Origin: Octopus vulgaris
Lineage: Eukaryota
DNA: 64,000 nt
Direction of reading: 5' to 3'
NCBI GenBank assembly: GCA_951406725.2
Contig: OX597817.1
Location: 100,998,001-101,062,000, forward strand
Shown here: in pieces, positions 18,233 to 55,825 of the stretch
How positions within the stretch are numbered: position 1 is the first letter of the stretch
How the letters are laid out: each line of letters starts with the position of its first letter
Notes under the pieces: model-generated
Seen by the model: the letters and a program-made list of their open reading frames with translations, nothing else
Told to the model about the DNA's origin: nothing
The model's database searches: none
Translations under genes and position numbers: made by a program

Positions 18233-18292
18233 CCAATATATATATATATATATATATATATATATATATATATATATTTATTTTATAGAAGG

Positions 18293-18343
18293 AGCTTCTA
18301 CAGGACTAGAACTGTTTCATTCAAATGAAATCATCAGGAAGCT
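18293..18343 (-). ncRNA. Type I hammerhead ribozyme (PLE A)
   Basis: Minus strand AGCTTC-CTGATGA-T-TTC(attt)GAA-T-GAAA-CAG(ttctagtc)CTG-TA-GAAGCT: 6-bp stem I, intact core, GUA triplet. Confidence 0.85.
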
Positions 18344-18556
18344 TGGCGTCAAGAATAGTTTTGGCATTTATACATTTAGGCAGATTTGATGGGGTGGTGG
18401 TGGGGGACTTTTTTGGGGTAGGCAGGGCACAAACTGTCTTTCTTAGGGGAGTGGTCAAAAGAATCAGTGATAAAGTAGATAAATGAATAAATAGAATAAT
18501 AGAATAGAGTTTTAGGTAAATAGGAAGACTATTGCTTATATATATATATATATATA

Positions 18557-18896
18557 ATTAATCAATATAGGGTGGCAAAAAAAATTTTGTAGAATTCTTT
18601 TGCCACCAGCGGCCTAGTAGGAAAAAATTAAAATAGTCATAGACCATTTTTAAGTTCAACATCAACAATAAAGGAACGGCCATAATAGGCCATTCACCCA
18701 CTAGAAATAACAGCCAAAGCTTCAACCGCAAATAAAAGTTAATTCAGTAAACCAGGAGAAAATTTAAAAAATTACAGGGTAAATGTTTTTTAAATTTTCT
18801 CCTGGTTTACTGAATTAACTTTTATTTGCGGTTGAAGCTTTGGCTGTTATTTCTAGTGGGTGAATGGCCTATTATGGCCGTTCCTTTATTGTTGAT
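18557..18896. repeat. Miniature fold-back element: 111-bp perfect inverted repeat plus ~100-nt one-sided extension
   Basis: 18661-18771 = revcomp 18786-18896 with a 14-nt loop; flanked by (TA)n; shares CTAGAAATA(A/G)CAGCCA and an ATTGTTGAT(AT) end with 25597-25802. Confidence 0.85.
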
Positions 18897-20110
18897 ATAT
18901 ATATATATATATATATGTATATATATATATATGTATACATATACATATGTATACACATATACATATGTATACACATACGCACACACACACATACACATAC
19001 TCATACACACACACTTATATACATACGCACATATATATATATACCTACATATATATACAGATACACATACACATACATGCCAACATGCAAGCACACGCAC
19101 ATATATATCTACACATATATATATATATAAAAAAAAGGAATATACACACCCATACACACACACACACATACATATACGCATGCATATATACACACATACA
19201 CATACACACACACACACACACACACACACACACACACACACACACACACACACATATATATATATATATATACACATACATGCACATATATACACACACA
19301 TTTTCTCCCTTATTTTATTTTATTTTTATTTTTATTTTATTTTTAGTTTGACCTCTTCAGAATCATAGAAGGTGTAATATATGACCTGCCCACTCGCCGA
19401 CACACATTTAGTGGCGCTGGAGTAGCCGTTCACCGGGGTGCTAGCCGGTCTGAATGAAATCCATTTACCGCCCCTCTCTCTTCCTTCACACTCATACACA
19501 TACACAAAGACATATGTTCTCTCGCTCATTTCCTTATCAGCCACTCATACTTATGTATGTATCTCTCTCTATACAGGCGCATATATACGTATATACATAT
19601 ATATGCATATATGTATGTACATACATATACACACGCAAGTACACATATTCATACATACATAAATGTACCCACTTTCACATAAACGTATACATAACTATGT
19701 ACACACAAAACCACATATATAAAAGTACTTCAGTACACATAAACACACATGAACATCTGCCCGCATATGTACACGCATATGCTTATAAATACATATATGC
19801 ACACATGCGCGCATACACGTGTACATAAAAGCATACCTACATATACATACCTACACACATATATATATCCACATACATGCACGTACATACACATGCGTTC
19901 ACGTACATACAAATATATATCTACACACATACACATACATACATATATACACATACAGAGATCTACAAGTCCTTATATATACACACACACACATATATAT
20001 ATATATATATATATATATATATATGTAGGTCCCGGGTTGATTCGGGGTTAACCACAGTAAATAAGGTACTCAATACATAGCAGAGTAAAATTAATTTATT
20101 ATATAGAAGG

Positions 20111-51999: not shown

Positions 52000-52037
52000 C
52001 TGTTACTCTGAGTTTCTCGTTGCCGTTCATCAGACAG
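52000..52037 (-). ncRNA. Minimal type I hammerhead ribozyme (PLE F, inverted copy)
   Basis: Reverse complement of 54223-54260. Confidence 0.75.
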
Positions 52038-54222
52038 TTTTTGCTAGAATGGAACTGATATATCAATTCAATCTATACTCTTACAAACGCTACACCTTTA
52101 AAAAGAAATGGACTTGTTTGATTGGCCCTTTAGAAAAAACGGTCAATCTTCGAGCGATAAACAAAAAGGTCAAAAATATATGTATATATATATAAAAAAC
52201 TTATAAAAATTATAAAATCCGAGGAAAAAACCTATTGACGTTAATGAAGACAGTGCAAATTAATGCATAGAAATTAAACCTGTTATAAATACTGCAATAC
52301 ATATTTATATTAAAATTTACATATATATATCAACATACACAAAAGGATGCGCGTAAACGCCATACATACATATACAGACGTATGAATATAAATCTAAATA
52401 TACACATAAAAGCATGTGTACATATATTCACGCAAACCGTCTCGCACGCAAGCTAAAATTCATCTATGTAGCAATTCTCATATACTGAGCAAGGAGGGGG
52501 AACGAAAGAAAGGAGAGAGAGAAAAAGGAACGAAGAAGGGGTGGGGAAAAAACGAAATAATAAAAAATTATGTATACAAGCAGTGTAACGGTATTATTGG
52601 CATATATAGAGACCAGTATACATACACAAGTTTGAATGGATACATATACATACAGTCGTGTATATGTGTGCTTAAGCACAAATATACTTTCACTTACACA
52701 TACACAGATACGCATGCTTACAAATACATATGCTTTGCTATACATATACTTATATAAACATTCTAATTTTGACAACATTGCTTTTTTTTAAAAAAACATT
52801 GCTTTTAAAAATGGGTGCATTAATAAAAATATATACGAAAGACATATAAAATAAAATATAACATCCTATTTTGGGTCATTTATAAATAATCAATGTAATA
52901 TAAATAATCAAGGTAATCCTATGCAATACAATAACATGAAAACAAAGTTTGTAGGTTTTTCCTAATATATATGTAGAAACATAAGACTTTGCTATACGGA
53001 TTAAGATCCGCATACAAAAATAATTTCAAGTGCAAGCTTTGTCTATTAGAAAAAATGTACATCTTATTCAAAGACAATAATTCTTTGAATCAAAGAAGTG
53101 AGCTAATGAACTTATGTAGGCACGCGGCTAAATTTAAAATGTCGAATATAAATATACCATATGGATAGAGTATATATTTTGTATTTTTGATTTTGATTTT
53201 GACTCTTGAACGATGAGCGCTACGATGGATTTTGTTTTTGTTTCAAGCTATGCGGATCTTAATCCGTATAGCAAAGTCTTATGTTTCTACATATATATTA
53301 GGAAAAACCTACAAACTTTGTTTTCATGTTATTGTATTGCATAGGATTACCTTGATTATTTATTTTACATTGATTATTTATAAATGACCCAAAATAGGAT
53401 GTTATATTTTATTTTATATGTCTTTCGTATATATTTTTATTAATGCACCCATTTTTAAAAGCAATGTTTTTTTAAAAAGCAATGTTGTCAAAATTAGAAT
53501 GTTTATATAAGTATATGTATAGCAAAGCATATGTATTTGTAAGCATGCGCATCTGTGTATGTGTAAGTGAAAGTATATTTGTGCTTAAGCACACATATAC
53601 ACGACTGTATGTATATGTATCCATTCAAACTTGTGTATGTATACTGGTCTCTATATATGCCAATAATACCGTTACACTGCTTGTATACATAATTTTTTAT
53701 TATTTCGTTTTTTCCCCACCCCTTCTTCGTTCCTTTTCTCTCTCTCCCTTTCTTTCGTTCCCCCTCCTTGCTCAGTATATGAGAATTGCTACATAGATGA
53801 ATTTTAGCTTGCGTGCGAGACGGTTTGCGTGAATATATGTACACATGCTTTTATGTGTATATTTAGATTTATATTCATACGTCTGTATATGTATGTATGG
53901 CGTTTACGCGCATCCTTTTGTGTATGTTGATATATATATGTAAATTTTAATATAAATATGTATTGCAGTATTTATAACAGGTTTAATTTCTATGCATTAA
54001 TTTGCACTGTCTTCATTAACGTCAATAGGTTTTTTCCTCGGATTTTATAATTTTTATAAGTTTTTTATATATATATACATATATTTTTGACCTTTTTGTT
54101 TATCGCTCGAAGATTGACCGTTTTTTCTAAAGGGCCAATCAAACAAGTCCATTTCTTTTTAAAGGTGTAGCGTTTGTAAGAGTATAGATTGAATTGATAT
54201 ATCAGTTCCATTCTAGCAAAAA

Positions 54223-54260
54223 CTGTCTGATGAACGGCAACGAGAAACTCAGAGTAACAG
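54223..54260 (+). ncRNA. Minimal type I hammerhead ribozyme (PLE F)
   Basis: CTGT-CTGATGA-A-CG(GCAA)CG-A-GAAA-CTC-A-GAG-TA-ACAG: 4-bp stem I, GNRA-capped stem II, palindromic stem III, GUA triplet. Confidence 0.75.
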
Positions 54261-55825
54261 ATTTTGTTGAATTTTCTGCTGCTTAAAATAAAAGCGTATT
54301 ACTCTACCACTGGTATTTGAGTACTCTTTTTTTCCACCTTGTTTCACATTTATGTGTTTACTCCGGTATATATATATATATATATATATATATATATATA
54401 ATTTGGGAAAACAAATTTCCAAAACAATCAGGTGCAACTCATTAGCATATTGTACCTTGGGGTCTTATTTATCGTATATTTATATATGTATCTATAAATA
54501 TACAAAGAATCTGATAAAAGTCAATATTAATTCAATTTGGGGGGATTAATCGATATGCGGGTATTCTAATTCAGATAATATAAAATGTCCTAATGAGTAT
54601 ATCTGACAGTAAACTCATGGTATCAGTTTGCACATCACGAAATAATACTTAAAGGATATAACCAAAATTTCCAGCTGGGTATATAATGTACTTCCTTAAT
54701 TATACCCTATATTAGTTAATACTTATATTTATTAAATATGAAGGAACTACACGTGTTTCAGTAGAAGGAAAAATATATATGAAGAAAAAAATATATATGT
54801 TGTAATTTGCTTGAAGCAAAGTGTAAGTGATATAAATTTATTAGAAAAATAATTTTAAGTAATGTTGATAAGTTAGGCAAAATATATAAGTTGATTTCAA
54901 TAAATAAAATCAAAGAGAAAATATGGACGCGTTACTTTCACTCAAACATACGCTCTTAATACAGTGATTTCCGCTCTATTTCTCCGTTTCTCTCCCGCGC
55001 TAGTTTTCCTCCGCCTTAACCTTCCTGACATACTTTTCTTCTGTCTGTTTGTCTTTCCTTCCCCTCTCTCACGCAGTACTTTCGGCCCACATATGCACTT
55101 CACATTCCCTATTAGTTGTCGCCCGCCGTGCAGATATGATGGATATAAAGCTCTTCTGTCTTTTCATCCTTTTATCTCAAACCGAAAGGTCTTTGAACAA
55201 TACGTCGGAAATTCCAACCCTAAGACATACATACTATATCCTTCTAGTTACTTTTTCCCTAAATACAATATTTATATAACTACAATGTTTACACACACAC
55301 ACACACACACACACACACACACACACACACACACACACACACACACACACACGCACACACACACATACACACACACACAGAACGCGTTCGCGCTTACAAA
55401 CATATGTCGAGAAAGATATTCAGGTACATGAACATCGAAAAGATGGGTCAGAGAGGAGGATGTGGCAGCCGCAGAGGAGTGGCCGTTTCAATGGGAAGAA
55501 AGACAGGTAGAAGGTGGCTAAGCATGGAATGCGACTTTTATTCGTGTGCAGTGAGAGTAGGAAAGCGGTTGCACGGCCGAGTATCCTTGATTGAAGAAGT
55601 GTTACATTTTTCCACATTGGAATTCGATATCCGAATCAATGACAAAATGTTGACGAAGCCAGAGGAACAGGGAGAGATGCACACTCTGTCTCTGTCTATC
55701 TGTCTGTCCCTCACACACACAGATGCGCGCATGCACACACATGTACGCGTGTCTACATACTTACATCCATATATATATATATATATATATATATATATAT
55801 ATATATATATATATATATATATATA

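What the first reader, a model, noticed from the sequence alone, without database searches (positions are those of the whole stretch)
18277..54367. Recurring asymmetry: only one arm of each inverted pair has a 70-100-nt tail
Seen in five elements from several families: A (tail 35973-36041), D (20025-20093), E (29749-29830), F (54295-54367) and the mini element (18557-18660). The tail-less arm stops at a short A/T-rich motif that merges into (TA)n, about 22-38 nt after the (putative) hammerhead cleavage triplet, and at the same point in A and D. Established: Drosophila Penelope has a short optional tail. Inference: two priming events per insertion, one at the RNA 3' end and one at an internal AT-rich site annealing to the (TA)n target; a mechanistic footprint of PLE integration.
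Basis: partly seen in the sequence, partly recalled or inferred. Interest (0 to 1): 0.7.

Follow-up and report, generated by a model that had tools for sequence, protein, structure and literature searches.

The report
One-sided tails of Hydra-type Penelope insertions
The five mirror-image insertions really carry a 68-106-base tail on one arm only, a published trait of Penelope-like jumping genes (there 30-40 bases), and their anatomy suggests the enzyme likely starts copying its RNA from both cut DNA ends at two fixed sites, one just before a small conserved hairpin motif, rather than by pairing with TA repeats.

Summary
Observation confirmed: 5 of 5 listed inverted pairs have one tailed arm (tails 68-106 nt). 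In the four with a hammerhead motif the tail-less arm ends 21-38 nt past the predicted cut. For family A/D that short end recurs in contigs of three public runs. A, D, E and F are truncated Penelope-like elements (PLEs) with Hydra-clade motifs; the mini element has no PLE marker. A one-sided tail is already in print (30-40 bp), and two RT start sites bounding it were shown in vitro for an anole PLE. The scan also noted this layout before, in this and other genomes.

What this window adds:
- longer tails;
- an 11-nt motif with a bulged hairpin 4-13 nt into all four Hydra tails, found nowhere else in the window;
- the tail on the short arm in A, which excludes a single fold-back there;
- an 11-bp target duplication outside both (TA)n runs of A, in a LINE whose paralogs have no (TA)n there.

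Annealing to (TA)n is not supported: overlap is 0-3 nt and better TATATA sites go unused. Priming at the RNA 3' end could not be tested. Verdict: new variant of a known kind.

The parts
18221..18231 (+). Left copy of an 11-bp direct repeat (likely target-site duplication of element A), outside the (TA)n run; followed by 4 nt of filler (18232-18235)
   Evidence: this word occurs only at 18221 and 36095 in the window; 2 of 3000 random 44-nt pairs share a word of 11 or more
18236..18277 (.). (TA)n run at A's tail-less end
18276..19321 (-). Element A, tail-less arm (part shared with the right arm; hammerhead core at 18337, predicted cut at 18299). It continues as a CA/TG-rich 3' UTR, interrupted by mini, D and E, up to the endonuclease piece at 35298
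18557..18660 (-). Mini element tail (104-106 nt), with two hairpins; no Hydra tail motif
   Evidence: (z -3.97 for 18553-18690)
18661..18896 (.). Mini element: 111-nt perfect inverted arms around a 14-nt middle, sitting in A's internal (TA)n; no hammerhead or ORF found
20025..20093 (-). Element D tail (69-71 nt); motif TTACTCYRCYA at 20088
20094..21238 (-). Element D tailed arm; hammerhead core 20155, predicted cut 20117
23883..25026 (-). Hydra-type RT to EN fragment inside D (profile positions about 256-640, one frameshift), CxCX5C linker
25027..28802 (+). Element D tail-less arm: EN C-terminus, long CA/TG-rich 3' UTR, hammerhead core 28741, predicted cut 28779
29748..29830 (-). Element E tail (83-86 nt); motif at 29820
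29831..33370 (-). Element E tailed long arm: thumb/linker/EN (32370-33212, CxCX5C), 3' UTR, hammerhead motif with long stem II
33371..34285 (+). Element E tail-less short arm; core decayed to CUGAAAA, predicted cut after 34256
35108..35298 (-). EN C-terminus at the inner (5') end of A's tail-less arm; makes that arm the long one
35299..35973 (+). Element A tailed short arm; hammerhead core 35912, predicted cut 35950
35974..36041 (+). Element A tail (68-70 nt); motif at 35978 opening a bulged hairpin
36042..36105 (+). (TA)n run at A's tailed end, then the right copy of the 11-bp direct repeat (36095-36105)
51961..53014 (-). Element F tail-less short arm; hammerhead core 52033, predicted cut 52004
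53015..54294 (+). Element F tailed long arm: EN C-terminus (53016-53150), 3' UTR, hammerhead core 54227, predicted cut 54256
54295..54366 (+). Element F tail (72 nt); motif at 54299 opening a bulged hairpin
4828..6944 (.).

Best explanation
A, D, E and F are head-to-head pairs of 5'-truncated Penelope-like elements with Hydra-clade motifs and a one-sided 68-86-nt tail, and each pair was likely made by two RNA-templated syntheses, one primed from each cut strand of the target, starting at two fixed sites that are likely set by protein bound to the RNA rather than by base pairing with (TA)n. Shown here: the arms, the fixed short end (recurrent for A/D in three runs), the tail on either the long arm (E, F, probably D) or the short arm (A), and the motif TTACTCYRCYA 4-13 nt into all four tails. 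Inferred: (1) an RT-EN dimer nicks both strands, as the anole protein does in vitro; (2) one subunit starts at the long end and copies the tail; the other starts just 5' of the motif hairpin, which would act as the binding or boundary element, and omits the tail; (3) both cDNAs stop early and are joined 3' to 3' with 0-5 nt of microhomology; (4) host repair fills in. The mini element probably arose the same way but carries no PLE marker.
For: Arm and end map. Hydra-type RT/EN pieces in the loops of A, D, E and F (against the definition). (AT)n loose ends behind 35973 in 17, 10 and 13 contigs of three runs. In A the loop's EN piece lies on the strand of the tail-less arm: a fold-back of a tailed first strand would put the loop on the tailed arm, and a fold-back of a tail-less strand cannot create a tail. 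The motif occurs 4 times in 128,000 strand-bases, all in the four tails, although self-BLAST found no match between A/D, E and F. The inner hairpin pairs change consistently (U-A to C-G; G-U to A-U). Overlap with (TA)n is 0-3 nt and 6-nt TATATA words in D and E are unused. In vitro precedent: both strands cut and extended, two internal starts bounding the tail, no homology to the cut DNA, predicted dimer (PMC11167929). In D the inverted RT-EN piece ends about 26 nt upstream of where the other arm begins, as expected if both arms came from one RNA.
Against: No biochemistry for any Hydra element; the precedent is a Poseidon-clade protein with a 30-40-nt tail. Only six pairs, four independent Hydra or mini families; contigs cannot pair the two ends of one insertion, so the per-insertion bimodality asked for was not tabulated genome-wide. 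G's short arm ends about 1.3 kb from the hammerhead region. The motif was defined after the fact; its offset from the short end varies (4-13 nt); the hairpin is weak (-3.0, -3.0, -5.9 and -0.8 kcal/mol; whole-tail fold z -1.2 to +0.2). The exclusion of fold-back rests on A alone, and A's long arm is reconstructed across three nested insertions. D's left part is rearranged by a foreign PLE piece. Overlap of 2 nt or more in 3 of 4 families is slightly above the 15-24% background, so minimal pairing may help.
Confidence: 0.62

Rival explanations
1. One reading: one priming at the RNA 3' end (long end), the other by annealing of the (TA)n target end to an internal AT-rich site.
For: Short ends lie in A/U-rich sequence; 2-3 nt fit both RNA and (TA)n in A, D, E and mini. 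All ends abut TA runs. A few A/D contigs appear to stop at 35965-35972, near the TATA word (joints). No read-through past the long end was among the rows shown.
Against: F has 0 nt of overlap; perfect TATATA words in D and E are not used; A and D share the end point despite differing there. A's TA runs lie inside a target duplication in a LINE. Both anole starts are internal and non-homologous.
Confidence: 0.15
2. One priming only: the first cDNA (or an antisense RNA, as proposed for rotifer Penelope) folds back and copies itself, and the copy stops before the tail or is trimmed by the endonuclease.
For: Tail on the loop-bearing long arm in E, F and probably D. Arms 98-100% identical. Very short head-to-head copies centred on a palindromic hexamer near 35905 are seen in contigs. 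Self-priming is proposed in PMC3846280 and EN-mediated resolution of the tail in PMC8557442.
Against: In A the tail is on the short arm and the loop has the orientation of the tail-less arm. Two RT starts bound the tail in vitro.
Confidence: 0.17
3. Both arms were tailed at insertion, and one tail was later lost by deletion or slippage into (TA)n.
For: Long inverted repeats and (TA)n are unstable (general knowledge); D and G show later rearrangement.
Against: Same end point in A and D and in 40 contigs of three runs; arms are young; no two-tailed pair among six.
Confidence: 0.04

Closest known systems
Insertion units of EN+ Penelope-like elements (PMC8557442 Fig. 2 legend and passages; PMC3846280 passages)
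   Same: Inverted 5'-truncated copy, outward-facing 3' ends, tail often at only one end, hammerhead in the pLTR, occasional 8-10-bp TSD.
   Different: Tails here are 68-106 nt, not 30-40 bp. They are not open reading frame as in rotifer Pen2a (where the tail extends the ORF start). A conserved tail motif is not described in the passages read.
Hydra clade of C-terminal EN+ PLEs (PMC8557442, section read in full)
   Same: C-terminal GIY-YIG-type EN, CxCX5C linker, CxxC and CxH motifs, canonical hammerheads, (TA)n flanks; full-length homologs carry RWK and DKT.
   Different: 3' UTRs of 1.1-3.6 kb make A/D and E longer than the 'generally <3 kb' described. In A the (TA)n runs lie inside a target duplication. 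No tree was built.
Poseidon_Ac (PAc) of the green anole in vitro (PMC11167929, main text results read)
   Same: Two start sites bounding the tail, downstream of a hammerhead; AT-rich target; both strands cut and extended. The long end here is 91-112 nt past the predicted cut; the PAc starts at +111-118 with the cut at +26 give 85-92 nt.
   Different: Other clade. PAc sites are 30-40 nt apart, lie in the ORF and in an AC-rich stem-loop; here they are 68-86 nt apart in apparently non-coding sequence.
Twin priming of L1 (recalled, no paper read)
   Same: Both target ends prime cDNA on the element RNA and give a head-to-head junction with microhomology. The inverted RT-EN piece in D has L1-like geometry.
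   Different: In L1 the second priming is at a variable internal site by annealing and the two pieces do not overlap; here both arms copy the same 3' region from fixed sites.

Membership tests
EN+ Penelope-like elements | PLE-type RT with GIY-YIG endonuclease in one ORF | tested here: met
   A profile of 120 homologs hits D (E 6e-96, 6e-47, 6e-9), E (6e-48), A (3e-9) and F (6e-11). Only fragments are present. Pfam gave no informative hit; one homolog carries PF01541.
EN+ Penelope-like elements | Inverted 5'-truncated copy, 3' ends outward | tested here: met
EN+ Penelope-like elements | [quoted passage not shown] | tested here: met
   5 of 5 listed pairs; G uninformative or contrary
EN+ Penelope-like elements | Tail length 30-40 bp (descriptive trait) | tested here: not met
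   68-106 nt
EN+ Penelope-like elements | Hammerhead motif in the terminal repeat | tested here: met
   A, D, F by scan with shuffle control; E read from sequence. Rfam listed none among the 150 of 403 rows shown. Cleavage untested.
Hydra clade | C-terminal EN with CxCX5C linker | tested here: met
   D and E linkers; linker region absent from A and F
Hydra clade | CxxC and CxH motifs flanking the conserved E and N | tested here: met
   A, D and F show both; E shows CxxC, its frame ends before CxH
Hydra clade | RWK and DKT motifs in the N-terminal part | tested here: inconclusive
   Region truncated in the window; present in printed homologs P0013, P0015, P0017 and DKT in P0089
Hydra clade | Absence of the CCHH motif; phylogenetic placement | not tested
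   No alignment to reference clades and no tree were made
Hydra clade | Generally shorter than 3 kb (descriptive trait) | tested here: not met
   3' UTR alone is about 3.6 kb in D and 2.6 kb in E
Hydra clade | Insertion into (TA)n | tested here: inconclusive
   All ends abut TA runs and mini sits in a run that pre-exists in A's other arm; but A's runs lie inside a target duplication
PLE membership of the mini element | Hammerhead, ORF remnant or tail motif | tested here: inconclusive
   None found; only the layout fits; Naiads lack canonical hammerheads
PAc-type internal initiation | RT starts at two internal sites bounding the tail | not testable with these tools
   Needs biochemistry or raw RNA reads; only contigs were offered

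The most novel reading that the evidence does not exclude
Hydra-type PLEs write their own (TA)n. The RT, a sister of telomerase, would add TA repeats reiteratively to each cut target end before switching to the element RNA at two protein-set registers, one just 5' of the conserved bulged hairpin. The clade's apparent '(TA)n targeting', and many TA microsatellites of this genome, would then be products of insertion rather than targets. Basis: in A, 21 and 28 TA units lie inside an exact 11-bp duplication in a LINE ORF whose paralogs have no TA run there; the left run has no TA seed in the target.
Probability: 0.2. Interest if true: 0.72.

Novelty: new variant of a known kind. Interest (0 to 1): 0.38.

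Why it matters
How PLEs build inverted arms and a one-sided tail is still called unresolved in the papers read. These copies give concrete handles for a clade with no biochemistry. The two start sites are 68-86 nt apart, a shared motif marks one of them and can be mutated, and one pair discriminates twin priming from fold-back. If the (TA)n runs are made during insertion, the accepted microsatellite targeting of Hydra elements would need revising. The asymmetry itself is known.

Tried and rejected
- No whole genome is held for this window, so the requested genome-wide per-insertion table could not be made. Contigs of public runs were used instead; they show recurrent ends but cannot pair the ends of one insertion.
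- Summed contig depth across 35973 falls in X1 and X2 but recovers in X3. It is not a copy number and I did not use it.
- No RNA holder was on record: no evidence on expression or RNA ends.
- No contig in 4 runs covered 18202-18252, so the orthologous empty site of A was not seen; only LINE paralogs.
- Rfam at E 5 returned microsatellite and hairpin miRNA noise; 150 of 403 rows were shown. Pfam was uninformative for three fragments.
- Whole-tail folding was not better than shuffles except for mini.
- Rejected: the tail as the ORF start. The motif reads Y-S, like the Hydra N-terminus, but reading the printed sequences by eye a stop follows within a few codons in A, D and F.
- Rejected: a 10-nt word shared by F's flanks as a TSD (not adjacent to the ends).
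- The palindromes at 626-891 (mariner-like by recalled motifs) and 43878-44152 (unclassified) have no TA flanks and no hammerhead hit, and were not counted.
- Literature: searches showed no listing on longer tails, a tail motif, twin priming in PLEs or PLE-made (TA)n. [quoted passage not shown] The supplements of PMC8557442, which hold Hydra consensus sequences, were not read and may bear on tail length.
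Full report
1. Observation. Masked self-BLAST and chains of unique inverted 18-mers recover the five pairs. Measured from the sequence, the tails are A 35974-36041 (68-70 nt), D 20025-20093 (69-71), E 29748-29830 (83-86), F 54295-54366 (72) and mini 18557-18660 (104-106). Arms are 98-100% identical over aligned bases. A hammerhead scan found both arms of A, D and F (6 of 7 hits; 0.17 per shuffled window, 30 shuffles). E's motif, with a long stem II, was read from the sequence; none was found in mini. 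So the short end is a fixed site of the family. It is either disrupted or an exception.

2. What the elements are. The RT fragment in D has 257 longer homologs. A profile of the best 120 hits the loops of D, E, A and F. The linkers CxCX5C (D, E), the CxxC and CxH motifs (A, D, F) and, in the printed homologs, RWK and DKT match the Hydra clade as defined in PMC8557442 (section read). I built no tree. The elements are nested: a decayed Tx1/L1-type LINE holds A; A's long CA/TG-rich 3' UTR holds mini, D and E. Earlier notes call the host an octopus; I did not check that.

3. Which arm has the tail. The EN remnants orient the loops. In E and F the tail is on the loop-bearing long arm. D is probably the same but is rearranged by a foreign PLE piece. 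In A the EN C-terminus (35298 to 35108, minus strand) abuts the inner end of the tailed arm but has the orientation of the tail-less arm, so the tail is on the short arm. A fold-back of one first strand would always leave the tail on the long arm. A therefore needs two RNA-templated syntheses, if my reconstruction across three nested inserts is right; the shared LINE flanks and 99% arm identity support it. In D the inverted RT-EN piece ends about 26 nt upstream of where the other arm starts, which fits one shared RNA, though a later deletion at the stem-loop boundary is also possible.

4. What sets the short end. Annealing to (TA)n does poorly. Bases fitting both RNA and (TA)n number 2, 2, 3, 0 and 2, against a background of 15-24% of positions with 2 or more. 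D has TATATA about 10 nt before its end and E has one in the tail; both are unused. Instead the four Hydra tails share TTACTCYRCYA, 4-13 nt past the short end. It occurs 4 times on both strands of the window, all in these tails, although the three families share no BLAST match. It opens a bulged hairpin whose inner pairs change consistently (U-A to C-G, G-U to A-U); energies are weak, and E's is marginal at -0.8 kcal/mol. Whole tails fold no better than shuffles except mini. The motif was defined after the fact.

5. The target of A. tblastn places consecutive parts of one LINE ORF on the two flanks (P0001 residues 259-330 and 349-533). An exact 11-bp direct repeat lies outside both TA runs (18221, 36095); 2 of 3000 random pairs share such a word. 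LINE paralogs run through the site with no TA run (loose ends behind 18199: X2 4 contigs, X17 6 contigs). The simplest reading is that both TA runs arose with the insertion. Against this: the orthologous empty site was not covered, and the locus has an older imperfect duplication of about 22 nt, so an earlier (TA)n insertion that A later used is not excluded. Mini, by contrast, sits in a TA run that A's other arm also has. This is one case, hence probability 0.2 for the general claim.

6. Mechanism. Best reading (0.62): both nicked target strands prime cDNA on the element RNA at two fixed, likely protein-set sites; the cDNAs stop early and are joined head to head. The double nick, the two internal starts bounding the tail and the lack of homology are shown in vitro only for the anole element PAc (PMC11167929; parts 1-2 of 4 of the text read); their transfer to Hydra is inference.

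7. Known and new. The one-sided tail is in print: PMC8557442 (passages and sections 11 and 15), PMC3846280 (passages) and PMC8969392 (passages). Passages of PMC4209133, the retrozyme preprint 10.64898/2026.07.22.740005 and PMC9977147 added nothing on tails. The scan has noted the same layout many times: 392 findings in at least 42 genomes by word search, and several in this genome; these are unchecked notes. Not found in eight searches: tails of this length, the tail motif, or TA runs inside a PLE target duplication; a search of earlier notes for the last found none holding all the words. Closed-access papers and unread supplements may cover these points.

8. Verdict. Real feature, largely known architecture; new variant of a known kind; interest 0.38. 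The bolder reading, that these elements write their own (TA)n, has probability 0.2 and would deserve 0.72.

Noticed in passing
window 35298, 25027, 23895, 53015: Inner (5') ends cluster in the endonuclease C-terminus: A's long arm, D's right arm and F's long arm start within about 20 codons (profile positions about 640-658), and D's inverted RT-EN piece ends within a few bases of where A's arm starts. This may be a transcription start, an RNA break or an RT stop; unexplained.
   Followed up: partly
window 21246-23895: A second PLE-like piece with another EN type (C-terminus 23631-23860, minus strand, no canonical hammerhead) replaces the inner part of D's left arm; the junction has a 10-nt fold-back and short repeated filler.
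   Followed up: partly
window 51743-51760 and 54400-54417: The first 17-18 nt of F's right flank reappear inverted, between TA runs, to the left of F: a templated copy of target DNA across the insertion.
   Followed up: partly
window 45975-46044: A (TA)n run flanked by a 13-nt inverted repeat with no element inside; possibly an aborted event of the same kind.
   Followed up: no
window 18203-18235 and 36099-36127: The Tx1/L1-type LINE that A interrupts has 32 extra nt at the site relative to its paralogs, including an older imperfect duplication of about 22 nt.
   Followed up: yes
window 35905-35940: Contigs show very short head-to-head A/D copies whose junction lies in or just before the hammerhead, for example at a palindromic hexamer near 35905; depth rises steeply there, so many copies may be only hammerhead plus tail.
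   Followed up: partly
window 18236-36098: Four-level nesting: LINE > A > (mini, D, E) > foreign PLE piece in D. The CA/TA-rich 3' UTRs of these PLEs serve as landing sites for one another.
   Followed up: yes
window 32760-33370: E's linker region carries asparagine-rich insertions, like the N-rich inserts described for rotifer Penelope.
   Followed up: no
window 626-1269 and 43878-44152: Two more palindromic structures without TA flanks: a rearranged mariner-like fragment (recalled motifs) and an unclassified 275-bp palindrome.
   Followed up: no
window 40142-40368, 62980-63822, 17022-17428; 42220-42414, 55850-56038: Two dispersed SINE-like repeat families, some copies ending at (TA)n.
   Followed up: no
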